The position numbers and the translations under genes were made by a program. Positions 15,613-30,531 of a stretch of 32,000 nucleotides of DNA are shown here, piece after piece (the first letter of the stretch is position 1; every line of letters begins with the position of its first letter). A model generated the notes under the pieces. That model worked only from the letters and a program-made list of their open reading frames with translations, made no database searches and was not told the origin of the DNA. The DNA is from Candidatus Poriferisodalis sp. (GTDB lineage: Bacteria > Actinomycetota > Acidimicrobiia > Acidimicrobiales > Poriferisodalaceae). The stretch is from contig NZ_OZ242364.1 of the NCBI RefSeq assembly GCF_965208925.1, positions 3,212,928 to 3,244,927 of the forward strand, given 5' to 3'.

Positions 15613-15637
15613 GTACGTTTTCTATCTGCGTACGATC

Positions 15638-16444: not shown

Positions 16445-16541
16445 CCCACCACTCCCATCTGCATCCTCAATCCGACCGTACCGAACCAGCACAGCGTGGC
16501 CCGTGTCGTTTTCGCGGACGCGGCTGCAGGAAGACGCCACC

Positions 16542-16937
16542 ATGGAGCCAGCGTCGCCTTTGACGGCGAAGGACGTCTGGGGCTTGTCATCGGGCTTTCT
16601 CGTGCGGTTCTTAGACTTGAGTGCAGTGGCAACGACGCGCTTTTCCCGACCTGTCGAGATACCGGACGATCTCGCGGAGCACACGCTCGCGCCTGAACGC
16701 GGGCGTGTGAAGCTCCCGAGCCGCCTCGCATGGAGCGGTCAGGGCGAGTTCGATCTCGACGACCGTCGCGACCGCATGTACGTGTATCAATTGGTGATGA
16801 CCGAAGGCACGTGCGACGACGTACGCCGCTATATCGACCTCAAGCTGCTCGTGGAGATGTGGTCCGACATGTGGCTCTCACCGCACGTGCGACAACGCTG
16901 GGACGACTGGTTGCGCGACCGCGAGCTGATTGCCTAG
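16542..16937 (+). CDS. Small antitoxin-position protein upstream of the AbiEii-type toxin (no recognisable HTH)
   Basis: The ATG at 16542 has GGAAGA 10 nt upstream. The stop (TAG, 16935-16937) overlaps the TTG start of the toxin gene. The Trp-rich C-terminus is ...DRMYVYQLVMTEGTCDDVRRYIDLKLLVEMWSDMWLSPHVRQRWDDWL. I associate this only from memory with partners of DUF1814 toxins. The start is uncertain because the 5' part of ORF 16344..16937 overlaps the PP2C gene. Confidence 0.55.
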   Translation: MEPASPLTAKDVWGLSSGFLVRFLDLSAVATTRFSRPVEIPDDLAEHTLAPERGRVKLPSRLAWSGQGEFDLDDRRDRMYVYQLVMTEGTCDDVRRYIDLKLLVEMWSDMWLSPHVRQRWDDWLRDRELIA

Positions 16938-17601
16938 CACTGTGCTGACGTCGCTGCAGCAACGTGTGCGCAGCATCATCGCGGGGTTGCCCGAGGCCGA
17001 CACAGTGGCTCTGGCTGGCGGCGGTGCGCTCATTGTTCACGGCATCGTCGACCGGGCCACTACGGACCTGGATTTCTTCTCGCCCACTGACGTTGATGTA
17101 CGCATTTTCGCTGAGGCGACGTGCTCCGCTCTCGAGCAAGAAGGTCTCGGCGTCGCCATGGAGAGATCGAGTGCTGAATTCGTGCGTCTCCTCGTCAGAG
17201 ACGGCAACGACGAGCTGAGTATCGACATCGGAATCTCCGGCCGTGCGTTTCCTCCAGTGTCCACCGCGCAGGGTCGGGTCCTCGCTGCTGAAGACCTCGC
17301 CGGTGACAAACTGCTGGCTCTCTTCGGTCGTGCCGAGCCACGCGACTTCATCGACGTCTACGCGCTCTCCGCCCGATTCGACGTCATAGACCTTTGCGAC
17401 TTCGCCGCCGACAAGGATCAAGGTTTCAGCCTCGAACAGCTGCGCGACGCCCTCAGCGTGTTCGACCACCATCCACGTCAAGCGTTCCCGATCACCGATC
17501 CAGAATTCGAGACACTGCGCGACTGGGTTCATTCCTGGCGCGGCCAACTGCCGCGCTCAAGCCAATCGTCACGCAATGATCGCGGAAGCACATCGGAGTA
17601 G
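16930..17601 (+). CDS. Nucleotidyltransferase AbiEii/AbiGii (DUF1814, MenT-like) toxin family protein
   Basis: 223 aa. The NTase core is ALAGGGALIVHGIVDRATTDLDFF (hGG...DxD), followed by LSIDIG and the family-typical GDKLLALFGRAEPRDFIDVYAL. The start is the TTG at 16930 or the GTG at 16942. Confidence 0.8.
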   Translation: MPSTVLTSLQQRVRSIIAGLPEADTVALAGGGALIVHGIVDRATTDLDFFSPTDVDVRIFAEATCSALEQEGLGVAMERSSAEFVRLLVRDGNDELSIDIGISGRAFPPVSTAQGRVLAAEDLAGDKLLALFGRAEPRDFIDVYALSARFDVIDLCDFAADKDQGFSLEQLRDALSVFDHHPRQAFPITDPEFETLRDWVHSWRGQLPRSSQSSRNDRGSTSE

Positions 17602-17607
17602 TAGGAG

Positions 17608-18282
17608 ATGGCCGTCAAGTGTCCCGCCTGCCGGATCACCGACCAACGGGTCTGGCTGGGAATTGTCGAGACAACGCTCAACGAAATCTTGGACGAAGTG
17701 TCAGAGTCACCTCGTCTGGACACCGCCGGCAGCAGTATCTGGTTGGCCCGCTGTGCGCGGGCTGACTGCTCAACTCTGGCCTACTGGTTGCGAACCCCAT
17801 CGGAGCACTCATTCGACGGATGGTCAGATGAGCGGTTCGCCGCCTTCCACCGGGATATCCGTCAGGCACCGGATCAAGGCCTGAATGGCGAAGAAGTGGA
17901 TCTCTACCGGGAGGCTGCCGCGGTAGCTGGACTCTCGCCTCGTTCCGCCTGCGCGCTTCTCAGACTCCTCCTGGAGTCGCTGCTCAAGCGTCACCTTGCT
18001 GATGCCGGGCACTCGATTAACAACAAGACGCTGTTCAAGCTGATCGAGCTGGCTGAACAAGAGCTCGATCTTTCGTCACTACTCAAGAGCGGACTTAGTG
18101 CAATCCGGGTCCAAGGCAACGAGGCCTCGCACGACATCTATGGGATCAGCGCCGAGACGGCCGACGCCAATGTGAAATGGCTGTTCGTCGCGATCGATCA
18201 ACTAATCGACGATCTCTACGTCAAGCCCCAGGTCTGGGCAGAACTCGAGCAGCGGCCCAATCCGGAAGAAGAGCCGTTCTGA
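17608..18282 (+). CDS. DUF4145 domain protein with an N-terminal CxxC...Cx4C zinc-ribbon-like module
   Basis: 224 aa. Cys5/Cys8 (CPAC) and Cys49/Cys54 (CARADC) form the ribbon-like module. The C-terminal half, LYREAAAVAGLSPRSACALLRLLLESLLKRHL...LFKLIELAEQE...LSAIRVQGNEASHD, fits the DUF4145 pattern (Y.EA...lR..lE.ll......L...I..L......l..iR..GN.a.H). The ATG lies 6 nt after the toxin stop, and the GGAG SD is inside the toxin's last codons. Confidence 0.75.
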   Translation: MAVKCPACRITDQRVWLGIVETTLNEILDEVSESPRLDTAGSSIWLARCARADCSTLAYWLRTPSEHSFDGWSDERFAAFHRDIRQAPDQGLNGEEVDLYREAAAVAGLSPRSACALLRLLLESLLKRHLADAGHSINNKTLFKLIELAEQELDLSSLLKSGLSAIRVQGNEASHDIYGISAETADANVKWLFVAIDQLIDDLYVKPQVWAELEQRPNPEEEPF

Positions 18283-18333
18283 GGCTGCATCACAAAGGCT
18301 CGGGTTCCGGTCTTGCACATCGAGCCTCGGGAC

Positions 18334-18377
18334 CGCACGGCAGTGATGGCGCTGGGGTGACCCCCTCGTGCCGTGCG
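18334..18377. terminator. 9-bp inverted repeat between the convergent DUF4145 and brxL-like genes (possible bidirectional terminator)
   Basis: CGCACGGCA (18334-18342) and TGCCGTGCG (18369-18377) are exact reverse complements. The 26-nt spacer contains an inner GGGG-tga-CCCC. No U-tract is present. Confidence 0.35.
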
Positions 18378-18397
18378 CCAGGGTCGCTCGGCGACGT

Positions 18398-20395
18398 CTA
18401 CCAGCGGGAGCGGATGTACTCCAGTGCGTCCTTCGTGTTGTAGAGCCGCGTCGAATTGCCCATCCGCACGTAGAACTCGGCGTCGTCGCTCAGGTAGACC
18501 GGCTTCGGGCTCGGTCGGATGTCGAGCCTGCAGACGTCGCCTTCCGGGAACTCCTCGAATGTCACATCAATGAGGGTGGCCGTCGGCGACTTCCCGATCT
18601 CTCGGTCGAGCCGCGTGATCAGCCAGTTTTCGAAACCGTCCCGACCGTTGTTGCCCGTCGTTGAGTAGTCATCCGCCAATCCGGTCGGGTTCTGCCTGTC
18701 GTGCACGCCGATCAGCAGGACGCCCCCGCCAGCGTTCATGAATCCAGCGACGGACTTCAGGACGCTGTGCTCAAGCTTCTTGTCGGCCTTGCCGGTGTAG
18801 GGGTTGAAGCGCGCCGTCTGCTTGTATTCGACGGTCTTGCTCTCGCCTGCCTCGATCAGCTCTGCCGTCGAGCGGCGCTGCTCGTGCTCGACCTCAGCCA
18901 CATCGAGGTCGGGCTCGGTCTCAAGTTCATCCGGTTGCTCTGGAACCTCGACCCAGATCTCGCGCCCGGTGTCCTCTTCCAGGTACGAGAACGCCGTCTT
19001 GGCATAGTCGTGGAACGCCAGCTTCTTCAGCTGCTCCTTGACCCGGCGTCGACCCTCCATGGCGAACTCGAGGTACTCCCGCAGTTCACCGTGGCCCCAC
19101 TCACCGTGCGGATGCAGGATCTTCACCAAACCCGACACGGTCTTGCGCACAGCGCGCTCGTCTCGGGCCGACAGATGCGAGCCAAGCCCGAAGTCAGCGT
19201 CGATCGCCCGCACCTGGCTGCTCTTGCGGAGTTGGCGCATCGCCTCGGCGAAGTAGTCAGACACGAATCCGAAGTGATCAGTGAAGAGCCTCGCTTCGAG
19301 CTTCGGAGCTTCCCAGCCAGGCAGGGAGTAGTGCAGCCGATCAAGGAACGCCGGATCGATCATCTGCGGCGGAAGATCGGCGAAGAGGTGTGCCGTACGA
19401 ACCAGCTCTTCATGGGGCTTCGAGGTGTTCCCGATGAACACGACCGACGCCTCGGCCGGGATCTCTTCCTTGCCGCGAGCAAATGACCCGGACTCCATGA
19501 AGTCCTTCAGCATGTTGACGACGGTCGAATCCCCCATCTGGAGGCCGGCGACCTCATCGAAGGCGACGACGTCCCACGTGCCGAGCAGACCGACTCGGCC
19601 GCTCGACATGTTCACGAACAGCTGAGCGACGGTGACCTTGCCGCCTGATATGAGGATCGCGTTCGGATTGGACTCACGGTAAACGAAGGACTTCCCGGTA
19701 CCCCACGGCCCGAGCTCGATGAGGTTGTAGTTCCGTTCCACCATCGGGAGCAGGCGCGTGAGTGCCAGCAGCTTGCCGCGATGGTCGTACTCGGTTGGCT
19801 CGAGACCGATGGTCCGCACGACAAGGTCGAGCCAGTCGTCACGGCTGAACTCCCGCCTGGCATCGACATAGGCGGGGAGGTCGAAGGCAGCGACCTGGAT
19901 GGGCTTCAGTCCAGCGATGTAGAAGGGTGTCTTCTGCGCCTTGTCCTCTAGGTCGTTGTAGACGAGGTCGATCTGCGACCAGGCACCGCCGCCGAGGAGA
20001 CGCTCGTACTTGTAAACGGTCTCCTCAGGGATGTTGATGAACTTCGACCCGAAGTTCGCCAACGTCGCCCAGAACTTCTTGTCGGACTCAACGAAACGGA
20101 CATCGACCTTGTCGATCAGGCGGTGCTTGCCCTTCTTCTTCAGTTCAGCCTTCGCCTGCTCGGACTCGTCAGGTCGGATGAAGTTGTCGGCGAGCACCTG
20201 ATTGACGACGGTGAGGCCAGCCTCGATCTCGAACGGGTCGGATGAGGCGCAGTACTTGCCAAGGAGGAACTCGAGCACATAAACGGGCACTGACGCGCCG
20301 ACCTTGACCTGACGCACCAGATCTTTACGCACGACTCGGCCAGGGAAGAACCGGTTGGCTAGCTCGTCGAGGCGGTCGTGTTCGCGCTCCGTCAC
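18398..20395 (-). CDS. brxL: BrxL-family AAA+ ATPase with a C-terminal AlbA_2/Schlafen-type domain in place of the Lon-like domain
   Basis: 665 aa. The N-terminus LANRFFPGRVVRKDLVRQVKVGASVPVYVLEFLLGKYCASSD matches BrxL/TIGR02688 as I remember it. Walker A is GPWGTGKS (aa 229-236) and Walker B is VVAFDEV (aa 275-281). YLEFAMEGRRRVKEQLKK follows, then an acidic linker. Residues ~510-665 (AELIEAGESKTVEYKQ...LKSVAGFMNAGGGVLLIGVHD...FYVRMGNSTR) fit the AlbA_2 (PF04326) pattern. GTGA overlap with the pglZ stop. Confidence 0.85.
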   Translation of the reverse strand: MTEREHDRLDELANRFFPGRVVRKDLVRQVKVGASVPVYVLEFLLGKYCASSDPFEIEAGLTVVNQVLADNFIRPDESEQAKAELKKKGKHRLIDKVDVRFVESDKKFWATLANFGSKFINIPEETVYKYERLLGGGAWSQIDLVYNDLEDKAQKTPFYIAGLKPIQVAAFDLPAYVDARREFSRDDWLDLVVRTIGLEPTEYDHRGKLLALTRLLPMVERNYNLIELGPWGTGKSFVYRESNPNAILISGGKVTVAQLFVNMSSGRVGLLGTWDVVAFDEVAGLQMGDSTVVNMLKDFMESGSFARGKEEIPAEASVVFIGNTSKPHEELVRTAHLFADLPPQMIDPAFLDRLHYSLPGWEAPKLEARLFTDHFGFVSDYFAEAMRQLRKSSQVRAIDADFGLGSHLSARDERAVRKTVSGLVKILHPHGEWGHGELREYLEFAMEGRRRVKEQLKKLAFHDYAKTAFSYLEEDTGREIWVEVPEQPDELETEPDLDVAEVEHEQRRSTAELIEAGESKTVEYKQTARFNPYTGKADKKLEHSVLKSVAGFMNAGGGVLLIGVHDRQNPTGLADDYSTTGNNGRDGFENWLITRLDREIGKSPTATLIDVTFEEFPEGDVCRLDIRPSPKPVYLSDDAEFYVRMGNSTRLYNTKDALEYIRSRW

Positions 20396-22911
20396 AACTC
20401 TTCCTGGACCATCACGTGAGCCGCCACCTCGATATCAACAGCATCGCCGAGGCGAATTCCGGTCGAAGCATCGAGCACTTCGAGGATGGCCACAGAACCG
20501 GCGGTGAGATTCTCCGAGATTCGCATGGTGATCACCTGGCTCTTGTCCACTGCCGCGTCAATGGTGCCAGTGACCGGGTCGAAACCGTCGCCACCGACGA
20601 CTCGAGCGATGCGCTTTCCATTCTGCGAGAGGACGACCCGTACAGGGCTCTCACTGGTGAACAAGTCGCCGGTCATCTGAATCGTGACGGCGACGACACC
20701 GGTGGTGATTCGTCCGCCCGCCACAGACAACTCGATCTCATACTTCGGCTCGGCTGTCGGCTCGTCCGACACCACCGTGATAACGGGCACGACGAGTTCT
20801 TGCGGAGACAGTCCGCCGTGGAAGAACTGCAGACCACCGCTGGCCACAAACACGCCGAGCCCCCGCGGGGCGATGATGTCGAGACCGCCGCCGATACCGA
20901 AGTCGGACAGCGGCACCTTCACGGTCGAGTCCGTCGCGGTGCCGCCGGTGCCGATCCAAGCCCGTCGATGCGGCTCTCCCCTGCCGGTTGGCGGCTTGTC
21001 GACCCGCAGCTTCTCCCCTAGCTCGCGGACGGCGAGGAATCCGTGGTCGGCTGTGAGAACGACGCGCCGGATGCCGGCGTGGAGCAAACGAGCGACTGCG
21101 GTTTGGAGCACATCGAGCGTGGAATCGAACGAGCCCCAGCTTGCAGCGAGCTGGTCGGTCTCGCCGTCTGCGTCGATCTCGGTCGACCTAACGAGCACGA
21201 GGGACGCTCCCTCGATGTGCTTCTTGAGTTCGCGATTGGTGTACTGCGCCAGTTTGTCGAGCGGTATATCGGCCACCTTGCCGTGAACCTTCTCGAACCG
21301 ATTGACTCGGTCAGAAACCGTTCGGACGGTCCTTCCCTGGATATGCACCGCGAGGCGCGAATCCGCATTCAGATCAATGTCGAATCGTTCCTCCGCACCA
21401 GGCGTGACTGCGGCCATGCCTATCGGCGTGATCGTCGGAGCAGCAGCTGCCACTGCGCGCACGTCGACGGTCGCATTCAGTCGCCCAAGCCTGGTAGCGA
21501 GGTCCCGGCCGAGTTCGTACCGCAGAGCATCTACGAGCACATATGCCGTGCGAGTCCGGCCGCGCACCTCTGCATGGTGAATGCGGCGCTGCTGCTCGTG
21601 ATCGGGGACGTTCGCATCGCTGGAAATCGCCTCCGCCGTCCGCCGCAGCACTTGGTCAAGCCACTGTTCGTAGCGTTGGCGGCCGAGCCGGAACGCATCG
21701 TCCAACTCATGCAGATCGGTGCCGGCGCTGACTCTCAGTAGCTCCATGCGGCGGTAGGCGCTGTCGACCTCCCAGCCGGTCGACGAGTACCAGTCGACAA
21801 CGGATGCCAACGACGCGGCCGCGGGCAGTTCGCTCTCCAGAGCAGCGTTCAGACCAGCGATGGCGGCAACTGCACGCCACCGAGCATGAAAGTCGTGACC
21901 CTCCAGCCGGTTCGGTTGCGCCCACCAGCTCGACTGCAAGCGCTCCTCGGCCAGTTCGCTCGCAGCATGCCAATCGCGTTCGCCGAGAAGGCGTCTGGCT
22001 TCAAGCAGCGCAAGCTCCTCAATGCCTGGGGTGAGATCAATGCTGCTCATCCCCTCCCGCCAAGTCATGACAGCGGCTGTGTGCAACGCGCTGTCAGCCT
22101 CGTTGGCGAGTTCAACGATGGCGGCCGAGCTCTCGGACAGTGCCCGGAGGAGGCCCCACGTGTCGTTGACGGTTTTGCGCTGTGGCGCCGTGACCGACGC
22201 GAATGCCCCGGTGAAATCGTCGGGCAGCATCCCCGTCGCCTCGTGGAGCACTGTGAGTACGAAGTGGCGAAACACTTCTGAGCGGAGAGCTGCCCCGTTG
22301 GCGACGTCGGCCTTGGCACCGGTCGACTTCGCAAAAAAGGCATGGGCGGCATCGAGGAGCACAGGTTCCGTCAGCTGCTCGTCGTACGAGCCCGAGAGCA
22401 GAGCCCGGGCGATAGCTGCTGTTCCTGACTCACCCACCAGCGTCATCAGTCGCGCATCCGCCTCGCTGGCACCGGCGTCCAGTGCCGCCTCCACCTCCGC
22501 CAGGGTTTGGCACTGCTTGCCCAACTCCTCAAGCCGCTGATCGGTCAGCTGGCCCCGGAGCGAATTGCGGATGACGGTGGGAAGCAAGCTGCGATGCGAG
22601 AATCCGACCGACCGCAACTCCTCAAGTGGGTCGTTCTCGGGCGCCGGAGCTGAAACGTAAACAAGCAGGTTGGGTGATGTCGCTCCAGCGAGTTGCGCTT
22701 CGATGTCCCGTCGGAGTGCAAACCAGCTTCCATCGAACGTAGCGACGGATACGCCTTCCGGAGCGATCTCACCGGCGACCGCGCCATAGGACTGCTCTCG
22801 GTCATCCCAGATAACGACGCCGTACCGCTGGAGCTTGCTAGCAAGCTCCCTTGCCAAGTGGTCTCGTACTGGCGTCACAACTGATCCGCGTACTTCGAGA
22901 CCGTCGACCAT
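20392..22911 (-). CDS. pglZ: BREX alkaline-phosphatase-superfamily protein PglZ
   Basis: 839 aa. The N-terminal region is ...YGVVIWDDREQSY. PglZ-domain motifs are YVLVDALRYELGRDL and VLTADHGF. The start is the ATG at 22911 (37-nt overlap with pglX) or the GTG at 22878 (GTGA overlap). Confidence 0.9.
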   Translation of the reverse strand: MVDGLEVRGSVVTPVRDHLARELASKLQRYGVVIWDDREQSYGAVAGEIAPEGVSVATFDGSWFALRRDIEAQLAGATSPNLLVYVSAPAPENDPLEELRSVGFSHRSLLPTVIRNSLRGQLTDQRLEELGKQCQTLAEVEAALDAGASEADARLMTLVGESGTAAIARALLSGSYDEQLTEPVLLDAAHAFFAKSTGAKADVANGAALRSEVFRHFVLTVLHEATGMLPDDFTGAFASVTAPQRKTVNDTWGLLRALSESSAAIVELANEADSALHTAAVMTWREGMSSIDLTPGIEELALLEARRLLGERDWHAASELAEERLQSSWWAQPNRLEGHDFHARWRAVAAIAGLNAALESELPAAASLASVVDWYSSTGWEVDSAYRRMELLRVSAGTDLHELDDAFRLGRQRYEQWLDQVLRRTAEAISSDANVPDHEQQRRIHHAEVRGRTRTAYVLVDALRYELGRDLATRLGRLNATVDVRAVAAAAPTITPIGMAAVTPGAEERFDIDLNADSRLAVHIQGRTVRTVSDRVNRFEKVHGKVADIPLDKLAQYTNRELKKHIEGASLVLVRSTEIDADGETDQLAASWGSFDSTLDVLQTAVARLLHAGIRRVVLTADHGFLAVRELGEKLRVDKPPTGRGEPHRRAWIGTGGTATDSTVKVPLSDFGIGGGLDIIAPRGLGVFVASGGLQFFHGGLSPQELVVPVITVVSDEPTAEPKYEIELSVAGGRITTGVVAVTIQMTGDLFTSESPVRVVLSQNGKRIARVVGGDGFDPVTGTIDAAVDKSQVITMRISENLTAGSVAILEVLDASTGIRLGDAVDIEVAAHVMVQEEL

Positions 22912-25900
22912 GCGTACTTGCCTTGCCTCAGCTCAGCGCGGTACTTCGCAGCGTCCTTCCATGCCGGAAACAGCGACGCCAACGGCGCGGCGTTAAGCAC
23001 CGCCCCATCGTCGAGGTCAGGCTCCCATCCAAAGTTGGCAATCCGATCCGCTTCGTCCCTGAAGGCAACAAGCTCGACGGCGAGCTTCTGCTCAGCGCCA
23101 AGCTCTTTCGAGACAGCAGCGATAGGTCGGCCAGCACCACCGTCCTCGTACTCCCGCTGCAGCGTGGCGATCCGTCGTTCCGCCAATCGTTGGCGCTGCT
23201 CAGCCTCTCGAACGGTGGCGAACAGCATCTCGCGAGATAGGCGAGGCATGTACAGCCAGACACCCCATGCCTTCGAAGGAACCTGGAGCTGCCAGTAGAT
23301 CGGAGCCTTACGACTGCTCATCGAGTACTGGACGAGGTGTTGAGAGAAGAACTTCGTGCGGATGTAGCGGCTCAGCTGCATCGGTGCGCCGACGAGCGAG
23401 GCGCTGAGATCCTCTACCGAACAGCCTGTGATGTACTCGAGCGCCAACGCTACGCGACGGCTTACGTCGCGGTCTTCGCCTGGATCATCCGGCATGACAG
23501 CATCGGAAGCAACCTCGATTGGGTAACTCGCACGTGCCGCTCGAAGTGCCCCTGGAGGTAGGGGGCGGCGCGGCTCCCAGGGGTGAGTCGAACTTGTCAC
23601 ATTCGAGGGATCTCGGCCGATTTCGATATCCCATCGACCGAAAGCACAACCGACGGCGTAGGAGACCAGATCAGCGAGCTGCTTCTCGCCCGTCGGTGGC
23701 GCTCGATAAGGTCCAACGTGGCCCTGCGCCAATTCGTGGACACGCTCCTCCAAGTCCTCGTCCAGCCACCAAACTGGCGGGACGCTTCCTTGGTGCCCTC
23801 CTTGTGAGTAGCTCGTCGGCAGGGCTCCGAATTCCTCGCTCAGCATCCGGCGATCGGATTCATCGAACCCCATGGCGTCCAGCACCGCTTCATCCACAGC
23901 CGCTAGCTCGGCGAACGGCGTCGCGGCCGGCTCGACCCGACCGTAGGGAGCGAGGAACCGACCTGTCGTCTCGTCCCAAGTGTCATTGGCGGCCTTCCAG
24001 TCGACGATCCTCGCAACCGCTGCGGCGACTGCACCGCTGTCCCAAAATGCCGGAACCTCCGGAAGCCTCTTGACAGCACCAACTTCCCAAGATCCGAACG
24101 TCGTCAAGTAGCCCAGGAACATCTGTCCGGCTCGGGAGAGCAGATAACCGAGGGCGCATAGAAGCGCCTCTTCACCGTCACCATCAATAAACACACCACT
24201 TCCCTTGTCGGCAAAGACCGCTCCATCCGGCATCACTCGGGGGTTGAAGCCCTTCACCGTTCGTCGTGGCCAGGTAAGCCCGCGCCGAAAGTAGTACTGC
24301 GTGTTCTGGGCCCGGCTGCCGCTGCAAGCGCGGATGCGCTCCCCGTCGTTTTCCCAGTCCACGAGGAGGTGGATGTCCCCCCAAAAGGGGCTGTATGCGC
24401 CACCCTTCGCGAACGGCACCCAGCGGCAACCATGTCGAGTGTCACTTGTCGAGAATCCGACTCTTTCGGGGTTGACCTCCCATGCTGCTCGTACGAACCG
24501 AAAATCATCACCTGTTGCCAGTCCCTGCCTCACCTCCGCGCATGCTGCGAACGCAGGCCGAGAGCGGAACTGATCCCTCATCGCTTGGCTCATCCAATAC
24601 GAGACGGGCCAGCCCGGCACTGCTCCAAACTCGGAAAGCTCGACCACGTATACGCGGTGGTCATCGTTGCCGACGCGGTGTGCGCCGCTCGTTTCCCTCA
24701 GAGCCTTGCTTCGATCCACCTCAGAGTTAACGCGCAGGAACACGCCTTCACCCTCCGGCTCTGCCCGAGCCAGCACGTACGCCGCAGCCTCGACCCGAGC
24801 GTCTTCCATCACCCGTTCACCGAGGTCAGCGAGGACGACGAAGCGATTCGCAAGCAGCACCTCCCTTCGCCACTTTTCGAAGGTCCTGGTAATCAGACCT
24901 CCACGTGACGTGATCGCTGCGCATGTGCCGACCCGCTCCTCAGCGAGTTCAAGCCCGCGTCCGACAAACGCCGCGAGAAGGTTGTAGTCCTTATTCGGAA
25001 TCCACGGGTAGGCCGCCTTCAGGTAAGTCTTGGACGCAAAGACAGGCTCGCCGAAGGGTGGATTCATCAAACACGCCGTGTACCGGCGGCTCATGGCTTC
25101 GATGAAGCGAACGGCGTCGTGTGCTTCGGCAGCGAAGAGTCTCTGTGCCACGGTCGACGTCGTCTGGTCAGCAATCGTCTCCAGCGTCTCCAAGACAACA
25201 GACTCGACGTTCACGGCATTACCGCCAGACCACCCTTCGGAAAGAGTTCCCTCAAGGTGGCCGGTCCCGAACACATCACGCGCCTCCCGGTCGAGCCTCT
25301 CTTCGATCTTGAGCAGCGGACCGAGCACCGGAGCCATGATGAGTTCCTCGGCTATCGCTTGCACGACCCGGCCGACGTGCGGCGGCAGGGTGGCGATTAG
25401 TTCGTCTGCCTCTGGAGTGTCTGGCAGTGAGCGGGCGCAGATCACGTTCGGTTTCGGCAGTGGCGTGCGGCAATGACGCCGTGCACGAAGGATCACAGCG
25501 GCCTGCGCAATCTGGGTAGCGCGAGGATCGATGTCGATGCCCCACAGCGACCGGACGATGTCAGGCGCCGCGTCTCCAGGTTCGACGCCAGCGTGCCGCC
25601 AAGCGGCCTCCAGCACGTCATAAGCACCGAGCAGGAAGTGACCGGACCCGCAAGCCGGGTCGAGCGCGCTCACCTCGCGGAGGTCGATCGGCTCCGCGGC
25701 GGGCTCAGGCACCTCGACGAGCATCGGCAATTCGCCCGCAAGCGCCGGGAACGACGCGGCGAGGTGCACGCCGAGGCCGTTCTGAACAAGGAACTCAACG
25801 ACGTACGAGGGCGTGAAGAACTGGTTCCGTACTGCAAGTTCCCTTGAGTTTCGGGGAGCTGAAGACTGCCGCATCTCCTTTCGTTCATCGGACGAGTTGA

Positions 25901-26507
25901 AGAACTGGTAGGACCAACCAAGCGCATCGGGTGCCGACCAGATCGACTCGTCGACAGCGACGAAAAGCTCGATCAATTCCGAGAACGCTGCCGTCGACGG
26001 CTCAAGTTCGAGCAGTGGGTTGCGAGGGTCGAAGAGCGCGGGGACATCGGCCGAGAGTTCATCAGCACAGATCCGCACGAGGAGGCGGAAGCGTTCCCAT
26101 TCCTCATTCGCGCTGGCGGGCGCTATCTCGGCGAAGTCGCGGAATCCTTGCGAGACGAGTCCGTTGCCGATCGCTTCGGGCAGCACGCCGAGTCCTTCCG
26201 CCACCCGCAGGGTGACAAGCCGGTTGACGTGAGTGAAGGCGGCCTCGCGGATGAGACGCTCGACTGCCGAGGATTCTGTCTCGCCTTCGCTGCGCAAGTA
26301 AGCGATGACGTCGAGTAGGTCAAGTCTGACCGCCGCCTCAGACGCATCGAGCGGCAGGGCCTCGGCATCTTCGATCCGTCCGTCGCTGCGGTGGATACCG
26401 AATTCGCCTTCCAACGTCGATGCCAAGTCGATCTCAAGTAGCGACCGCGCCTTCTGGATGAGGTTGCCAAGAGCTGTCCGCTGAGCACCGTCCAGTGCCA
26501 CGGTCAC
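22875..26507 (-). CDS. pglX: BREX adenine-specific DNA methyltransferase PglX
   Basis: 1210 aa. The SAM-binding motif I is LDPACGSGHFLLGAYD and the catalytic motif IV is CLMNPPFG. The length and the N-terminal region (...FTHVNRLVTLRVAEGLGVLPE...) match PglX. GTG start in a GTGA overlap with the brxC stop. Confidence 0.9.
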   Translation of the reverse strand: MTVALDGAQRTALGNLIQKARSLLEIDLASTLEGEFGIHRSDGRIEDAEALPLDASEAAVRLDLLDVIAYLRSEGETESSAVERLIREAAFTHVNRLVTLRVAEGLGVLPEAIGNGLVSQGFRDFAEIAPASANEEWERFRLLVRICADELSADVPALFDPRNPLLELEPSTAAFSELIELFVAVDESIWSAPDALGWSYQFFNSSDERKEMRQSSAPRNSRELAVRNQFFTPSYVVEFLVQNGLGVHLAASFPALAGELPMLVEVPEPAAEPIDLREVSALDPACGSGHFLLGAYDVLEAAWRHAGVEPGDAAPDIVRSLWGIDIDPRATQIAQAAVILRARRHCRTPLPKPNVICARSLPDTPEADELIATLPPHVGRVVQAIAEELIMAPVLGPLLKIEERLDREARDVFGTGHLEGTLSEGWSGGNAVNVESVVLETLETIADQTTSTVAQRLFAAEAHDAVRFIEAMSRRYTACLMNPPFGEPVFASKTYLKAAYPWIPNKDYNLLAAFVGRGLELAEERVGTCAAITSRGGLITRTFEKWRREVLLANRFVVLADLGERVMEDARVEAAAYVLARAEPEGEGVFLRVNSEVDRSKALRETSGAHRVGNDDHRVYVVELSEFGAVPGWPVSYWMSQAMRDQFRSRPAFAACAEVRQGLATGDDFRFVRAAWEVNPERVGFSTSDTRHGCRWVPFAKGGAYSPFWGDIHLLVDWENDGERIRACSGSRAQNTQYYFRRGLTWPRRTVKGFNPRVMPDGAVFADKGSGVFIDGDGEEALLCALGYLLSRAGQMFLGYLTTFGSWEVGAVKRLPEVPAFWDSGAVAAAVARIVDWKAANDTWDETTGRFLAPYGRVEPAATPFAELAAVDEAVLDAMGFDESDRRMLSEEFGALPTSYSQGGHQGSVPPVWWLDEDLEERVHELAQGHVGPYRAPPTGEKQLADLVSYAVGCAFGRWDIEIGRDPSNVTSSTHPWEPRRPLPPGALRAARASYPIEVASDAVMPDDPGEDRDVSRRVALALEYITGCSVEDLSASLVGAPMQLSRYIRTKFFSQHLVQYSMSSRKAPIYWQLQVPSKAWGVWLYMPRLSREMLFATVREAEQRQRLAERRIATLQREYEDGGAGRPIAAVSKELGAEQKLAVELVAFRDEADRIANFGWEPDLDDGAVLNAAPLASLFPAWKDAAKYRAELRQGKYAWSTVSKYADQL

Positions 26508-29500
26508 CGGAGCCGGACCTCAGTGTCTTCGCTAAGTTCGCTCAGGACTGCCTCTCGCAACCGGCCGAGCGCCGCATCCAGCTCGGTCTCGGAAGTGATA
26601 GGTGCGCTCCAGACTTCGGCGGCGCGCACATGGCGGACCTCGCGAGTTGCCACCAGAGCATCCAACGCGTCCGACACCGAGCCGACTGCACCGTCGACAC
26701 TCTGGATGTTTGCCCGTAGCAACGGGATCTCGGCGGTGTCGGCGAGGCGGGCCAGCGGAGCGATCGCCTCGTCGAAGACATCGTCATCGACAGACGGATA
26801 TCGAGATCGGAGCGCCAAGGTGGCTTCCGCCACCTTCTCGGCGACGGCGTCTTGGAGCGAAGCCAAAGCGTTGGCCTTGGCCTGTTCGATCTTGGTGGTA
26901 TGGCTCTTGATCTTCGCCAGATCATCGCCGTAGCGCGCACGGGCCAAGAGTTCGCCGAGTGCTGTGGCCTCCTCCACGATGTCGGGATCGCCAAGCTGGA
27001 GGCCATCGCGGCTCGCCGCAACGGCAGAGCGCAATGTCGGCATCTCGTGTTCAGCAACCGAGGCGAGTGCAGTCACCACCGTTCGTCCGTCAGCGAGATC
27101 GATCCGGCGTTCATGCATAGTTTCAACGACCAGGTCATCGTCGTCGCCTGACAGACGCTCGAGGAGTTCATGCATGACATCGAGCTGCTCAGGCACGTCG
27201 AGGCCAGCGCCTCGGAATGTCGACATGGCTTCCGTGCAGGGCTGACGAAAGCCATCGAACACCGACCGGCCACGATGCGCGAGCGATCCGACGTCGATGC
27301 CGACCGGCTCTCCGGTCAACTCGTGCAGCCACTCGGTGACCTTGCCGCGCACATCGAGATCGGGTCCGCTTTCCTCGGCAGGCCGAAACGAAGCGGCCCG
27401 AAATGTTGGCAGCTTGGCGAAGATCGGCTCCAGACGGTGGTCCGTGTACGACGTGATCCGAGATGCCTGAGAGACGACTTCGAGGAGCCCGGCCCGAATA
27501 GCGGTGGCCAGAACCACCTGCAGCGCCTCGGGCGAACAACCAAAGGGCGGGCTCCCGAAGTGCCGCTCGAGCTGCTGGCCGCTCTGATCCTCGTTGTACT
27601 GCTTGCGGGCACCGATGTGGCCGACAACGGTCTCGATCGGCCCGCTGCCGATCACGAGTTCGTGCCCGCTGCTCGTGATCGTCACAACGTTCAGTCCGTC
27701 CGCGCCGCAACAGTCTGGAAGCCCTGCCAGGGAGTCCGCCTTCAAGACCTGCACAGGGTCGGTTCGCCTGACCGTCGCCGTGAACTCCTCGAGCCGTGGA
27801 TAGATCTTGTCGAGGTGGTCAGTGATGACCTTCTGAGCGGCCGGTTGCAGCTCGCCCTCGGGTGCCGCCTGTGAGGTTCCGCCGAAGACAACCGTCCCGC
27901 CGATCATGTCTCGGGCCAGCAGCTGACTGGCCGTTTGCCCGTGACGGTCCGCCCGCTTGCGTTCTTCCTGGAGCAGGAATCGCTCGGCTTCCCCTTGATC
28001 GTTCTTGTGACGGTCGATCATCTCCTCGCTGCGATAGAGCTCGACCAGCGCCTCGAAGGTGTCGTTCTGAGTCTCGTACGCCCAGTAGATGCGACTGTCG
28101 TTGTCTTCTGCCCGTGAGGTGAATCGCAGGGCGTCGAGATCATCGGTTTCTCGAATGTCGAGACTGATGTCGCCGTCGGTGAGCTTCTCGCGCTCGACGG
28201 TCAGCTCAAGCCTGAAAGTTCGGCCCTTCTTGACAGTGAGTGATCCGAGACGGTCACGTAACAACGTCTTGCGGATCCTCTTGTGGCGCTCGCCGATGTC
28301 GATCTGCCTGCGTTCCTTCTCCCAGTTCTTCTGTTCCGGGGTCTGCAGCCGATAGCCGTCATCACCCTCGCGCAGACGGTCCTCCCTCACAAGGTCCGCG
28401 AGCGCGTCGCGGACCTCCGATTCGAGGGGGTCTGCGTGCGTACTCGGGTGCAGGAGCACCGCCAAGTTCCGCGGAGAGAGCGGTACTCCGGGAACGTCGG
28501 TACACAGCGCCACAACCCGCATGATCTTGGCGTGGAGGCTGTCGTCACCATGTGCACTGGCGACCTGTTCGACTTCGTGGCGCCACGCAGTCGGGATCAC
28601 TTCTTCAAGGAGGGTGTAGGAGCGATCCAGTGTCACGAGCGCTCCGACGTCATCGCCGTGAAGCCCGACTGCCGGGTTGGTGATCAACTGCTGCGTGTGC
28701 TTGATGATCGTGCGGTTTGACCCGCCCAACGTCTGTGGCGCACCACCCTGAGCGCGTCGGGCCGAGACAGCGTCGATCAGGACCTGCAGCTGGTACGGCA
28801 CCAAGGGATACAGGCGAACGAAGTCCTCTTCGCCGAATGGCTCGTAGCGGTCTGACTGCAAGGCGACGGACGTGGCGAGCTTGTTGCGATCCGTGTCGAG
28901 AGCGGCACGAACAGCCGAAGAGCCGTCGGCGCTCTTGTCAAGGACGCGCCGCCCGGTGACCTCGTCAATATCGGAAGGCAGCAGGTCGACGCGAATCGGA
29001 AACCGGTCAACGGCCTTGGCAAGTTCGGTCTGCTTGCCTTCGAGGCTGTCAACCACGTCGGTGAGCTTCTCCTGCGACGTGGCGAGCAGCCAGAGCGCAC
29101 CTTTCTTCTTCTGGCAGGCCTCAGCGAGACCCTGAAGGCCGAGCATCCGGTCGACAGAGCGAGCGACGTACTGACCCGCCTCGTCGACGATGAACACGAG
29201 GCGCGTGGTCCCGCTTCGGCGCCTTGCGAGCATCTCCAGCGCACGGTCAGCGAACCAGTTGGCGTTGATCTCCGGCGGGCTGGCGGCGTTCGACCAAGAG
29301 TCTGCTGAGGGGTAGGTGTCGGGGTCGAGTTCGTGCAGCACCCGGCTGGCCCGATTCTTGGCTGTGATGACGTTGCGGTCGTCATTCCACGACCGGTCAT
29401 TCACCGACTCGTACGTCGAGAGGAACTGCCCGAGGCCGATCGTCTCATCGGGTCCCTCGAGTGCGTACTCGAGTTCGGCCAGCGTGACGTCGCGGCTGTA

Positions 29501-29962
29501 GCCGAGCTGCTCGAGCAACGTTCGGTATACCGGCAGCACCACTGCCTCGCCCTCGCGCAACACGTTGGGGCTGGTGGCGAGATCGAGAAGTACGACCTCG
29601 GCCTCGATTTGCGAGTGGACGGTGCGGAGCAGTTGGCTGGCGCGCGGGATCTCATTGAGCTCAAAAAATCGCTCGGCAACTCGCCGGCCGCCGATCTCCG
29701 GGTTGGCGATGAGATACCCGAGCACCTTGGCAAACGAAGACTTGCCTGACCCAAAGAAGCCGGACACCCAGATATTGACCGTCTCGCTCGGGTTCAGGAT
29801 CATCTCCTGGAACCTGTCGAGCACGTCAGTGAGCTCGGACGCAATGTGGTCGGTCGGGATGTACTCCTCGACCTCGGTGAGGATCGTGGACTCGTCGTCG
29901 ACCTTGATGACCTCTTCGATCTTGCGGTCAATCGGCCGGCTGAACAGTTCTTCGATTCTCAC
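26504..29962 (-). CDS. brxC: BREX P-loop ATPase BrxC/PglY
   Basis: 1152 aa. The N-terminus (M)RIEELFSRPIDRKIEEVIKVDD is followed by Walker A WVSGFFGSGKSSFAKVLGYL and Walker B LVFIVDEAGQYV. The size is typical of BrxC. GTGA overlap with the brxB stop. Confidence 0.9.
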   Translation of the reverse strand: MRIEELFSRPIDRKIEEVIKVDDESTILTEVEEYIPTDHIASELTDVLDRFQEMILNPSETVNIWVSGFFGSGKSSFAKVLGYLIANPEIGGRRVAERFFELNEIPRASQLLRTVHSQIEAEVVLLDLATSPNVLREGEAVVLPVYRTLLEQLGYSRDVTLAELEYALEGPDETIGLGQFLSTYESVNDRSWNDDRNVITAKNRASRVLHELDPDTYPSADSWSNAASPPEINANWFADRALEMLARRRSGTTRLVFIVDEAGQYVARSVDRMLGLQGLAEACQKKKGALWLLATSQEKLTDVVDSLEGKQTELAKAVDRFPIRVDLLPSDIDEVTGRRVLDKSADGSSAVRAALDTDRNKLATSVALQSDRYEPFGEEDFVRLYPLVPYQLQVLIDAVSARRAQGGAPQTLGGSNRTIIKHTQQLITNPAVGLHGDDVGALVTLDRSYTLLEEVIPTAWRHEVEQVASAHGDDSLHAKIMRVVALCTDVPGVPLSPRNLAVLLHPSTHADPLESEVRDALADLVREDRLREGDDGYRLQTPEQKNWEKERRQIDIGERHKRIRKTLLRDRLGSLTVKKGRTFRLELTVEREKLTDGDISLDIRETDDLDALRFTSRAEDNDSRIYWAYETQNDTFEALVELYRSEEMIDRHKNDQGEAERFLLQEERKRADRHGQTASQLLARDMIGGTVVFGGTSQAAPEGELQPAAQKVITDHLDKIYPRLEEFTATVRRTDPVQVLKADSLAGLPDCCGADGLNVVTITSSGHELVIGSGPIETVVGHIGARKQYNEDQSGQQLERHFGSPPFGCSPEALQVVLATAIRAGLLEVVSQASRITSYTDHRLEPIFAKLPTFRAASFRPAEESGPDLDVRGKVTEWLHELTGEPVGIDVGSLAHRGRSVFDGFRQPCTEAMSTFRGAGLDVPEQLDVMHELLERLSGDDDDLVVETMHERRIDLADGRTVVTALASVAEHEMPTLRSAVAASRDGLQLGDPDIVEEATALGELLARARYGDDLAKIKSHTTKIEQAKANALASLQDAVAEKVAEATLALRSRYPSVDDDVFDEAIAPLARLADTAEIPLLRANIQSVDGAVGSVSDALDALVATREVRHVRAAEVWSAPITSETELDAALGRLREAVLSELSEDTEVRLR

Positions 29963-30531
29963 GATTCACCTCGGGGGATGATGAGGGCTCGGTAGCCGTA
30001 TGTCGGCTCGGTCTTGCCCATGAACCGGAGGCCGTAGTCGCCCGAGATGCTGCCTGGGTAGAGCAGCGTGACCGGGCTGTCGATGCGAGCCTTGAGTTCG
30101 TCGAGCAGCGTGCTCGTGCGGTGGGCCGGATAGAGCGCGCCAGCGCGGTACAGGAAGATTGCCGAGCGATCGGTCTGCCTAGCTTGAACCCGGTCGACGA
30201 CGCGGTCGGCGAATGTGGGGCGTGCGCTCAGCACCTGCCGAACAGCGAGCTGCGCTTCCTCGTAGGCACCGGCCCGTTCGAGGTTGATGATCTCGTCGAG
30301 TTGGCCACCCTCCTCCAGGGTCTTCCAGAAGACGTCGGCGAGCGAGACGGTGTCGCATTCGATGTTCCGCGGGTCGGCTTCGAGCCACATGCGGAGATCA
30401 TTCAGCTCCCGCCTCACGGCGTACTCGTCCTGCGGCTCGTACTGGTAGATGAAGAAGGGCACGGTTGCCTGCGTCTCGTAGTAGCTGACGATCCGTTCGG
30501 CGATGTTGGCGACGGGCTCAGGCAACGGCAC
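29959..30531 (-). CDS. brxB: BREX protein BrxB (DUF1788)
   Basis: The DUF1788-like sequence is ...VPFFIYQYEPQDEYAVRRELNDLRMWLE...SAIFLYRAGALYPAHRTSTLLDEL...VTLLYPGS. ORF 29959..30588. I prefer the GTG at 30531 because GGAGG lies 6 nt upstream. That start overlaps the brxA 3' end by 14 nt. Confidence 0.85.
   Translation of the reverse strand: MPLPEPVANIAERIVSYYETQATVPFFIYQYEPQDEYAVRRELNDLRMWLEADPRNIECDTVSLADVFWKTLEEGGQLDEIINLERAGAYEEAQLAVRQVLSARPTFADRVVDRVQARQTDRSAIFLYRAGALYPAHRTSTLLDELKARIDSPVTLLYPGSISGDYGLRFMGKTEPTYGYRALIIPRGES

What the first reader, a model, noticed from the sequence alone, without database searches (positions are those of the whole stretch)
16542..18282. Three-gene operon: small HTH-less antitoxin-like ORF, AbiEii/MenT nucleotidyltransferase and Zn-ribbon-DUF4145 protein
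**Seen in the sequence.**
- Three plus-strand ORFs are tightly coupled.
- The first ORF's stop (16935-16937) overlaps the TTG start of the toxin gene at 16930.
- The DUF4145 gene starts 6 nt after the toxin stop, and its SD (GGAG, 17595-17598) lies inside the toxin's last codons.

**Established knowledge.**
- AbiE/MenAT systems are two-gene toxin-antitoxin/abortive-infection modules.
- The DUF1814 NTase toxin blocks tRNA charging (MenT). The cognate AbiEi antitoxin is normally a ~200-300 aa wHTH protein.

**Inference.**
- The upstream partner here is only ~131 aa and shows no HTH I can see.
- A third gene, DUF4145, a domain recurrently attached to restriction enzymes, is coupled downstream.
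- This could be a tripartite variant in which DUF4145 acts as sensor or regulator of the NTase. Alternatively it is a separate single-gene defence candidate riding in the same transcript.
- The operon sits directly next to, and converges on, the BREX operon.
Basis: partly seen in the sequence, partly recalled or inferred. Interest (0 to 1): 0.65.

Follow-up and report, generated by a model that had tools for sequence, protein, structure and literature searches.

The report
Toxin-antitoxin pair plus RAZR defence gene
The three tightly packed genes are real, but they are two separate, already-known kinds of phage-defence module (an AbiEii/MenT-type toxin with a small partner of an undescribed family, and a homologue of the single-gene RNase defence RAZR/PD-T7-4) travelling together as one 1.7-kb cassette, rather than a new three-part system.

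Summary
ORF1 most likely starts at GTG 16626 (103 aa, not 131). The conserved toxin start is GTG 16942, 4 nt after the ORF1 stop, not the overlapping TTG 16930.

- **ORF2** is a DUF1814/AbiEii nucleotidyltransferase with intact catalytic motifs and a predicted MenT-like fold.
- **ORF1** belongs to a large family with no Pfam, NCBIfam or PDB relative. In all 19 sampled loci with an ORF1-family match, it lies directly upstream of a short AbiEii gene. Most members lack an HTH; some carry an N-terminal XRE HTH.
- **ORF3** is a homologue of RAZR/PD-T7-4, a zinc-ribbon + DUF4145 HEPN RNase. RAZR is a published single-gene abortive-infection system activated by phage portal rings.

The trio is a discrete cassette (16607-18282). 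It occurs in a few closely related sponge-symbiont Acidimicrobiia in two genomic contexts.

The two modules also decay independently:
- the pair survives without RAZR;
- RAZR survives after the pair is deleted;
- distant relatives of either module never carry the other.

The tripartite reading is not supported. The modest novelty lies in the uncharacterised antitoxin family.

The parts
16607..16625 (+). Conserved 19-nt leader at the left boundary of the cassette (GTTCTTAGACTTGAGTGCA). It contains a -10-like TAGACT at 16612-16617, 8 nt upstream of the ORF1 GTG. Candidate promoter or short-leader region (inferred).
   Evidence: The first 18 nt (GTTCTTAGACTTGAGTGC) are identical in L001, L002 and L008, and differ at 2 positions in L006/L007. 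blastn homology to L006-L008 starts exactly at 16607. In L005 the motif is fused directly to the 3' remnant of AbiEii ahead of an intact RAZR-like gene. The simple sigma-70 scan found nothing.
16626..16937 (+). ORF1, 103 aa. Putative antitoxin or partner of the NTase; a member of an uncharacterised family with no HTH.
   Evidence: Homologues are mostly 103 aa. The family has 1064 representative clusters at E<=1e-3. It has no Pfam, NCBIfam, PADLOC or PDB sequence hit. The AF2 model has pLDDT 88 and no Foldseek match in PDB or BFVD. It is always directly upstream of a short AbiEii.
16942..17601 (+). ORF2, 219 aa from the conserved GTG (223 aa if from the non-conserved TTG 16930). DUF1814/AbiEii/MenT-family nucleotidyltransferase toxin.
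   Evidence: PF08843 E 2e-12; PADLOC AbiEii models. Invariant residues: G30 G31, R42-x-T44-x-D46-L-D48, K127, R134, R138, D139, D142, K162, D163. The profile hits JHP933 4o8s at E 2.5e-8. The AF2 model has pLDDT 90.9; top Foldseek hits are JHP933, MenT4, MenT3/TglT and MenT1.
17595..17598 (+). GGAG Shine-Dalgarno-like motif for ORF3, inside the last codons of ORF2, 9 nt before the ATG.
   Evidence: Read directly from the sequence. A GGAA/GGAG element at the same place occurs in L002 and L006-L008.
17608..18282 (+). ORF3, 224 aa. RAZR/PD-T7-4 homologue: an N-terminal Cys4 zinc ribbon (C5, C8, C49, C54) plus a C-terminal DUF4145 HEPN RNase domain (R167, H175).
   Evidence: PADLOC PD-T7-4 E 4.9e-18 over residues 3-210; PF13643 E 1.6e-8. 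PDB 9y9c (RAZR) E 1.7e-6 with the single sequence and 6.7e-19 with the profile; R167/H175 align with RAZR R146/H154.
18398..31285 (-). Context only: a convergent type 1 BREX operon (brxA, brxB, brxC, pglX, pglZ, brxL). It is not part of the cassette.
   Evidence: PADLOC, Pfam and NCBIfam hits. GC drops from about 0.66 to about 0.61-0.64 from around 17000 onward.

Best explanation
Positions 16607-18282 form a 1.68-kb cassette. It carries two functionally autonomous abortive-infection/toxin-antitoxin modules, apparently transcribed together from a promoter just upstream of ORF1.

**Module 1: ORF1 + ORF2**
- This is a MenAT/AbiE-like pair.
- ORF2 is a DUF1814 nucleotidyltransferase. By homology to MenT1/3/4, it is predicted to add nucleotides to tRNA 3' ends and so block aminoacylation and translation.
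- ORF1 is its cognate neutraliser. It belongs to a previously undescribed family with no DNA-binding domain in this member.
- ORF1 probably acts either by binding over the active site or by inducing auto-phosphorylation of the invariant Thr (T44 in R-x-T-x-D-x-D). This residue is positioned like MenT3 S78.

**Module 2: ORF3**
- This is a RAZR/PD-T7-4 homologue: a zinc-ribbon + HEPN RNase.
- By homology, it sits as inactive oligomers until it assembles around a ring-shaped phage protein such as the portal. It then cleaves single-stranded RNA and arrests translation.

**Shown here**
- The domain identities, catalytic residues and fold of ORF2.
- The strict ORF1-ORF2 pairing.
- The cassette boundaries.
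- The independent loss of each module.

**Inferred**
- All biochemical activities.
- The antitoxin role of ORF1.
- Co-transcription.
For: **Component identity**

**ORF1-ORF2 are a conserved pair**
- An ORF1-family ORF lies directly upstream of a short AbiEii in the window and in L001-L004, L006-L008 and L019-L024.
- The same holds in 6 of 6 actinobacterial plasmid loci, L025-L030.
- This persists down to about 35-45% identity.

**ORF3 is autonomous**
- RAZR defends alone from its native promoter in E. coli (PMC13017515).
- RAZR-like genes stand without the pair in L009/L017, L011-L016 and L018. No AbiEii was found among the 10 flanking ORFs tested in L011-L015.
- L005 keeps an intact RAZR-like gene after an internal deletion. 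That deletion removed ORF1 and about 167 codons of AbiEii, and fused the cassette's upstream motif to the remainder.
- L010 likewise has only a C-terminal AbiEii remnant.

**The pair persists without RAZR**
- L001 has only the RAZR start 'gagATGgcc' followed by a stop.
- L002 has RAZR truncated beside a DDE transposase gene.
- L003 and L019-L022 have no RAZR.

**Cassette**
- blastn homology to L006-L008 spans exactly 16607-18282 at about 77% identity, with unrelated flanks.

**Phosphoacceptor analogy**
- ORF2 has invariant R42, T44 and D46, compared with MenT3 R76, S78 and K79 (PMC11375011).
Against: - The intergenic gap between AbiEii and RAZR is 3-9 nt in every intact trio.
- The trio occurs in two different genomic contexts.
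- The three genes therefore move and are probably expressed as a unit, which leaves room for some functional coupling.
- No experiment or complex prediction shows that ORF1 binds or neutralises ORF2.
- ORF1 matches no known antitoxin family.
- Neither the promoter nor the transcript structure is demonstrated: the consensus scans found no promoter-like site and only one terminator-like site, no more than expected by chance.
- The sample of distant loci is small, about 9 RAZR-like loci and about 10 pair loci.
Confidence: 0.75

Rival explanations
1. Integrated tripartite system. The NTase, its partner and the HEPN RNase act as one machine. Either RAZR-like ORF3 senses phage and controls the NTase, or the NTase/ORF1 pair modifies and restrains the HEPN RNase, by analogy with HEPN-MNT type VII TA systems, where an NTase AMPylates the HEPN toxin.
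For: - The gene order NTase then HEPN, with a 3-9 nt gap, is conserved in the window, L002 and L006-L008.
- The cassette is found in two genomic contexts with boundaries exactly enclosing the three genes.
- Contig-length matching suggests further trios: P0171/P0193 on a 4030-bp contig and P0174/P0198 on a 27901-bp contig.
Against: - All trios belong to one narrow clade (ORF3 >=70% identical, ORF2 >=64%), so a single fusion event explains them.
- No distant pair locus has a RAZR-like gene: 0 of about 10 in L003/L020, L019, L021, L022 and L025-L030.
- No distant RAZR-like locus has the pair: 0 of about 9.
- Intact RAZR-like genes survive deletion of the pair (L005, L010), and intact pairs survive loss of RAZR (L001, L002).
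- E. coli RAZR works alone (PMC13017515).
- The NTase is DUF1814, not an MNT.
- The 2013 HEPN survey lists no NTase partner for DUF4145 (PMC3710099).
Confidence: 0.1
2. The ORF1-ORF2 pair is mainly an addiction or stabilisation module. It maintains the cassette or defence island (RAZR, BREX) in the genome and is not itself an anti-phage effector.
For: - The pair sits at the edge of a lower-GC defence island.
- It is common on large actinobacterial plasmids: 65 plasmid records.
- It sits among other TA loci, for example RelB/YafQ and PemK in L004, GNAT/DUF1778 in L025, and HicB/Fic in L029.
Against: - AbiE systems were discovered as abortive-infection systems, per established knowledge of the AbiE family (PMC7725324 title and abstract).
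- The pair also occurs in housekeeping contexts, between pdxS and sbcCD in L003/L020, with no island to stabilise.
- The pair decays readily (L004, L005, L010, L029, L030), which argues against strong addiction.
Confidence: 0.25
3. ORF1 is not an antitoxin. It could be a transcription factor, a chaperone or activator, or a specificity subunit of the NTase. The NTase would then be non-toxic or regulated in another way.
For: - ORF1 matches no known antitoxin family or fold.
- One NCBI record names a homologue 'transcriptional regulator'.
Against: - ORF1 has the canonical TA layout: a small upstream gene 0-4 nt from the toxin start.
- The pairing is strict over wide divergence.
- Some family members carry an XRE HTH N-terminally, the usual architecture of autoregulating antitoxins.
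- This member has no DNA-binding domain, so 'transcriptional regulator' does not fit it.
Confidence: 0.12

Closest known systems
MenAT1 (Rv0078B/Rv0078A) of Mycobacterium tuberculosis, and the MenAT/AbiE family in general
   Same: - Both have a short (about 200-220 aa) DUF1814 nucleotidyltransferase toxin preceded by a small antitoxin without a DNA-binding domain.
- The ORF2 model matches MenT1, MenT3 and MenT4 structures (Foldseek prob 1.0, TM 0.5-0.58).
- ORF2 has an invariant Thr two residues before the DxD motif, positioned like MenT3 S78.
   Different: - ORF1 (103 aa; two short strands plus four helices) has no sequence or fold similarity to MenA1 (68 aa, two helices; 8AN5).
- ORF1 also has no match to AbiEi/MenA3/MenA4 (wHTH + C-terminal domain).
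- It represents a separate partner family.
- The tRNA-modifying activity of ORF2 is untested.
RAZR (ring-activated zinc-finger RNase; formerly PD-T7-4) of E. coli, PDB 9y9c
   Same: - Same length class (224 vs 219 aa).
- Same architecture: Cys4 zinc ribbon, linker, DUF4145 HEPN.
- The catalytic Arg/His are conserved (R167/H175 = R146/H154).
- It matches the PADLOC PD-T7-4 model over nearly the full length.
   Different: - Only about 30% identical in the HEPN part. The zinc-ribbon region aligns only through the PADLOC profile.
- The host is a high-GC actinobacterial lineage.
- Here it sits 6 nt behind a TA pair instead of standing alone. [quoted passage not shown]
- This clade has a conserved acidic C-terminal tail P-[DE]-E-E-P-F.
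- Triggers are unknown.
HEPN-MNT (type VII) toxin-antitoxin systems
   Same: A nucleotidyltransferase gene lies immediately upstream of a HEPN RNase gene.
   Different: - The NTase is DUF1814, with its own upstream partner, not a minimal MNT.
- The HEPN is DUF4145 with a zinc ribbon, not DUF86/PF05168.
- Linkage is not conserved outside one clade.
JHP933 of Helicobacter pylori (PDB 4o8s/4ok0)
   Same: It is the closest solved structure and sequence-profile match to ORF2 (E 2.5e-8 by profile; Foldseek E 1.8e-8). It is a DUF1814 NTase of similar length.
   Different: About 20% identity. Whether JHP933 has an ORF1-like partner was not examined.

Membership tests
AbiE / MenAT (DUF1814 NTase toxin-antitoxin) | Toxin carries the DUF1814/AbiEii domain (PF08843) above the curated threshold | tested here: met
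   48 bits against a cutoff of 22.5, E 2e-12. Nine PADLOC AbiEii models hit weakly, best E 1.7e-5.
AbiE / MenAT (DUF1814 NTase toxin-antitoxin) | Pol-beta-type NTase catalytic motifs are intact (GG...DxD, conserved Lys, C-terminal Arg/Asp motifs) | tested here: met
   G30, G31, D46, D48, K127, R134, R138, D139, D142, K162 and D163 are invariant in 22 sequences.
AbiE / MenAT (DUF1814 NTase toxin-antitoxin) | Bi-lobed MenT-like fold | tested here: met
   AF2 model pLDDT 90.9. Foldseek top hits are JHP933, MenT4, MenT3/TglT and MenT1 (prob 1.0, TM 0.5-0.58).
AbiE / MenAT (DUF1814 NTase toxin-antitoxin) | Cognate antitoxin of the AbiEi/COG5340 type (N-terminal wHTH + C-terminal neutralising domain) | tested here: not met
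   No AbiEi or HTH model hits ORF1 in Pfam, NCBIfam or PADLOC. There is no PDB sequence or fold match, including to AbiEi 6Y8Q-type structures.
AbiE / MenAT (DUF1814 NTase toxin-antitoxin) | Alternative: MenA1-type short helical antitoxin | tested here: not met
   The ORF1 profile and model do not hit the 8AN5 MenA1 chain.
AbiE / MenAT (DUF1814 NTase toxin-antitoxin) | Small gene immediately upstream, conserved as a pair with the toxin | tested here: met
   Every locus with an ORF1-family match (19, counting near-duplicates) has it directly upstream of a short AbiEii, in a few cases degraded.
AbiE / MenAT (DUF1814 NTase toxin-antitoxin) | Toxicity of the NTase, neutralisation by the partner, and tRNA 3'-end nucleotidylation | not testable with these tools
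   Needs expression assays and tRNA sequencing.
RAZR / PD-T7-4 | Matches the family profile over most of its length | tested here: met
   PADLOC PDLC04109 E 4.9e-18, residues 3-210 against profile 14-188 of 211. The A3 profile against RAZR chain 9y9c gives E 6.7e-19.
RAZR / PD-T7-4 | N-terminal Cys4 zinc-ribbon domain | tested here: met
   C5-x2-C8 ... C49-x4-C54, nearly invariant in 13 homologues. No structure was predicted for ORF3.
RAZR / PD-T7-4 | DUF4145 HEPN domain with the catalytic Arg and His (RAZR R146, H154) | tested here: met
   R167 and H175 are invariant and align to R146/H154 (PMC13017515).
RAZR / PD-T7-4 | Functions as a single gene | tested here: inconclusive
   Comparative support only. 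Homologues stand alone in L009 and L011-L016, and remain intact after loss of the pair in L005/L010. In the window it is 6 nt behind ORF2.
RAZR / PD-T7-4 | Higher-order oligomer activated by assembly around phage portal or ring proteins; ssRNA cleavage | not testable with these tools
   Needs biochemistry, cryo-EM and phage escape mutants.
HEPN-MNT type VII TA | Minimal NTase (MNT) antitoxin paired with a DUF86/HEPN toxin, conserved as a pair | tested here: not met
   The NTase is DUF1814 and the HEPN is DUF4145. The adjacency is absent outside one clade.
BREX type 1 (context) | brxA, brxB, brxC, pglX, pglZ and brxL in one operon | tested here: met
   All six are hit by PADLOC, Pfam or NCBIfam. 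The three-gene cassette is not a BREX component.

The most novel reading that the evidence does not exclude
The cassette is a functionally integrated two-effector abortive-infection unit.
- RAZR expression is slaved to the promoter and feedback of the ORF1-AbiEii module. L005 keeps that upstream motif when the pair is deleted.
- The two effectors may also converge on the same substrate pool: the NTase would extend tRNA 3' ends and the HEPN RNase would cut tRNA/ssRNA.
- One would then back up or potentiate the other when a phage blocks it.

A smaller, more probable novelty stands apart from this. ORF1 may define a third, structurally new class of neutraliser for MenT/AbiEii toxins, and it is widespread in Actinomycetota.
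Probability: 0.12. Interest if true: 0.6.

Novelty: new variant of a known kind. Interest (0 to 1): 0.35.

Why it matters
- **Not a new tripartite system.** The finding resolves into known kinds: a MenAT/AbiE-like pair and a RAZR homologue.
- **The ORF1 family.** It has more than 1000 clusters at 50% identity, is annotated 'hypothetical', and has no Pfam, NCBIfam or PDB relative. Its confident predicted fold has no structural match. It is the invariable upstream partner of a large group of short actinobacterial AbiEii/MenT-like toxins, including on Mycobacterium and Streptomyces plasmids. Characterising it would test whether antitoxin-induced toxin auto-phosphorylation is general.
- **RAZR's range.** The recently described RAZR mechanism appears to extend to high-GC sponge-symbiont Acidimicrobiia.
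- **How defence islands form.** The locus gives a clean natural example of two Abi modules welded into one mobile cassette and then decaying independently.

Tried and rejected
**ORF1 identity**
- Single-sequence and profile searches of ORF1 against PDB gave only chance hits: TGF-beta2 proprotein at E 0.15-0.73.
- Foldseek of the ORF1 model against PDB and BFVD gave nothing below E 3.

**ORF2 against PDB**
- The single sequence gave no hit. Only the family profile reached JHP933.

**Wider searches for RAZR-like loci**
- The genome-contig scan with the RAZR-like alignment gave only 8 loci, and the metagenome-contig scan gave 1. The distant-neighbourhood sample is therefore small.
- tblastn of ORF3 against plasmids and phages, and of ORF1 against phages, gave no match.

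**Regulatory and RNA features**
- The sigma-70 promoter and intrinsic-terminator scan of 16300-18500 gave no promoter-like site and one terminator-like site (18412-18431), no more than expected by chance.
- The Rfam scan of 15000-19000 gave no hit.

**Possible mobile-element ends**
- Imperfect inverted repeats flank the cassette (16601-16620 / 18320-18339, 75% complementary). I judged them chance, because the right arm is not conserved in the other cassette copies.

**PP2C as a partner of the pair**
- This was rejected as a conserved feature. PP2C is an insertion relative to L004, and it is absent from the other pair loci except for a generic PstP cluster in L022.

**Literature**
- A search for an XRE-type AbiEii antitoxin family found nothing describing ORF1's family.

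**ORF1 start at ATG 16542**
- This was rejected.
Full report
**1. What is in the sequence**

The window is high-GC (about 0.66), dropping to about 0.61-0.64 from around 17000 onward. Three + strand ORFs lie between a divergent PP2C phosphatase gene (15638-16444, minus strand) and a convergent BREX operon.

Two starts need revision.

- **ORF1.**
  - Its homologues are mostly 103 aa, and conservation begins at 'ATTRFSRPVEIPDD'.
  - Nucleotide homology to every related locus begins at 16601-16607.
  - The syntenic locus L004 lacks the PP2C gene and the DNA holding ATG 16542.
  - The start is therefore best placed at GTG 16626 (103 aa).
- **ORF2.**
  - All 21 aligned homologues start at the residue matching GTG 16942.
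  - The TTG at 16930 is TCG in three related loci.
  - The conserved arrangement is a 4-nt gap, not an overlap.

Tight coupling is unaffected: the gaps are 4 nt and 6 nt.

**2. The three proteins**

*ORF2*
- It matches PF08843 AbiEii above threshold.
- Its NTase motifs are invariant across 22 homologues: GG, R42-x-T44-x-D46-L-D48, K127, R134, R138, D139, D142, K162, D163.
- Its family profile hits the DUF1814 enzyme JHP933.
- Its AF2 model (pLDDT 90.9) retrieves JHP933, MenT4, MenT3/TglT and MenT1 as the top structures.

*ORF3*
- It matches PF13643 and the PADLOC model for PD-T7-4 over almost its whole length (E 4.9e-18).
- It also matches PDB 9y9c, a 'DUF4145 domain-containing protein' with 24 chains in the entry.
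- That entry is RAZR, the renamed PD-T7-4.
  - RAZR is a Cys4 zinc-finger plus divergent HEPN RNase.
  - It defends E. coli as a single gene by abortive infection.
  - It is activated by assembling as a 24-mer around phage Gp77 or portal rings, then cleaves ssRNA. R146 and H154 are essential (PMC13017515).
- ORF3 keeps the four Cys (C5, C8, C49, C54). It also keeps R167/H175, which align to R146/H154.

*ORF1*
- It hits nothing in Pfam, NCBIfam, PADLOC or PDB.
- A full HMMER search of 1.84 billion representatives found 1064 relatives at E<=1e-3.
  - Most are 100-140 aa.
  - About a sixth of the top 150 have room for an N-terminal domain.
  - Of ten such proteins, four carry an XRE-type HTH and one an HTH_17.
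- The AF2 model is confident (pLDDT 88, pTM 0.81). It has an extended N-terminal segment bearing the 'RPVxIPDD' motif, two short strands and four helices.
- It has no Foldseek match in PDB or BFVD. In particular, it matches neither MenA1 nor AbiEi.

**3. Gene neighbourhoods**

*The pair.* I built HMMs from the three alignments and scanned all fetched loci. Every locus with an ORF1-family match (19, counting near-duplicates) had it directly upstream of a short AbiEii. These comprise:
- the window;
- Poriferisodalis-like metagenomic genomes (L001-L004, L006-L008, L019-L024), down to about 45% toxin identity;
- six plasmid loci from Mycobacterium avium, Rhodococcus, Streptomyces and Streptantibioticus (L025-L030). 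Where annotated, the ORF1-like gene is 'hypothetical protein' and its neighbour is an 'AbiEii/AbiGii toxin family protein'.

ORF1-ORF2 is thus the conserved two-gene unit.

*The trio.* The RAZR-like gene follows the pair only in close relatives.
- The trio is intact in L006, L007 and L008.
- It is truncated, next to a DDE transposase gene, in L002.

*No cross-linkage at a distance.*
- Distant pair loci have no RAZR-like gene: L003/L020, L019, L021, L022 and L025-L030.
- More distant RAZR-like genes (39-58% identity) have no pair: L009/L017 beside a type I R-M system, L011-L016 and L018.
- The 10 flanking ORFs tested in L011-L015 gave no AbiEii hit.

**4. A cassette that decays module by module**

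blastn shows that homology between the window and L006-L008 runs exactly from 16607 to 18282. That is from 19 nt upstream of the ORF1 GTG to the ORF3 stop, at about 77% identity and with unrelated flanks. The flanks differ as follows:
- PP2C and BREX in the window;
- MDMPI_N/2-Hacid_dh fragments and nitroreductase/QueC in L006-L008.

The trio is therefore a discrete 1.68-kb cassette present in two contexts. L004 shares the window's left flank but has only ORF1 plus a toxin fragment.

Within the clade the modules are lost separately:
- **L001** keeps the pair but has only 'gagATGgcc...TGA' where RAZR should start.
- **L005** has an internal deletion. It joins the conserved upstream motif (GTCCTTAGACTTGCGT) directly to about codon 168 of the toxin, followed by an intact RAZR-like gene.
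- **L010** also has an intact RAZR-like gene behind a C-terminal toxin remnant.

This pattern is what two autonomous modules sharing a promoter would produce. It is hard to reconcile with an obligate three-part machine.

**5. Mechanism**

*Module 1 (inferred by homology).*
- ORF2 would act as a tRNA 3'-end nucleotidyltransferase, as MenT1/3/4 do, and block translation (PMC10435456).
- ORF1 would neutralise it. MenA1 and MenA3 are unrelated to each other, yet both induce toxin auto-phosphorylation on a Ser/Thr just before the catalytic Asp: MenT1 T39 and MenT3 S78, with R76 and K79 nearby (PMC11375011).
- ORF2's invariant R42-x-T44-x-D46 fits this geometry. Induced auto-phosphorylation or active-site occlusion by ORF1 is therefore the most likely mode.

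*Module 2 (inferred by homology).* RAZR-type ring-templated activation of a HEPN RNase.

*Co-transcription (inferred).*
- It is inferred from the 4- and 6-nt gaps, the SD inside ORF2, and the retained upstream motif in L005.
- The consensus scans found no promoter-like site and one terminator-like site, no more than expected by chance.

**6. Comparison and novelty**

- Both modules belong to known kinds.
- A small HTH-less antitoxin for a short DUF1814 toxin has a precedent in MenAT1. ORF1, however, is a different and much larger family with a fold that has no solved relative.
- The HEPN survey of 2013 lists zinc-ribbon fusions and R-M/TerD/McrBC/SymE operon partners for DUF4145, but no DUF1814 partner. 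It also notes sporadic HEPN coupling to Pgl/BREX (PMC3710099).
- The AbiEii-RAZR juxtaposition is lineage-specific.
- I rate the whole as a new variant of a known kind, on account of ORF1's family, with modest interest.

**7. Limits**

- The distant-locus sample is small. The RAZR-like subfamily appears restricted to sponge-associated MAGs, and the context look-ups were capped.
- No complex prediction was possible.
- No ORF3 structure was predicted.
- All activities are inferred by homology.

Noticed in passing
window 18398-20395 (-): BrxL has the BrxL_N and BrxL_ATPase domains. Its C-terminal part (residues 518-651) is a Schlafen/AlbA_2 domain (PF04326, E 4e-15) where canonical BrxL has a Lon-protease-like domain. 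The 675-680-residue BrxL profiles align only to about residue 490.
   Followed up: no
window 15638-16444 (-): A PP2C-type Ser/Thr phosphatase gene lies divergently about 180 nt from the cassette. It is an insertion relative to the syntenic locus L004 and is not linked to the pair elsewhere. MenT-type toxins are switched off by Ser/Thr phosphorylation (PMC11375011), so a neighbouring phosphatase could be relevant, but nothing here supports that.
   Followed up: partly
window 15373-15612 (-): A small 79-aa ORF with an N-terminus 'MPNRIISVPDDVV' that looks like a ribbon-helix-helix antitoxin. It is 74% identical at the protein level in L004, so it is probably a real gene.
   Followed up: no
window 31282-31827 (-): A 181-aa ORF overlapping the start of brxA by 4 nt has no Pfam or PADLOC hit. 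It is a possible accessory BREX gene.
   Followed up: no
P0049 (376 aa; ORF1-family representative): One family member fuses an N-terminal MntA-like minimal nucleotidyltransferase (NF047752, E 5e-9) to the ORF1 domain (residues 255-352).
   Followed up: no
window 18262-18279; alignment A2/A3: RAZR-like proteins of this clade end in a conserved acidic tail P-[DE]-E-E-P-F, including the stand-alone copy in L009.
   Followed up: no
L006/L007 6026-10669: Beside the other cassette copies lies a cluster of nitroreductase, QueC, PfkB/nucleoside 2-deoxyribosyltransferase, Ogg-HhH, an HTH protein and an MmeI-like enzyme. It looks like another defence or DNA-modification island.
   Followed up: no
window 16601-16620 and 18320-18339: An imperfect 20-nt inverted repeat (75% complementary) brackets the cassette. 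The right arm is not conserved in the other copies, so it is probably chance.
   Followed up: partly
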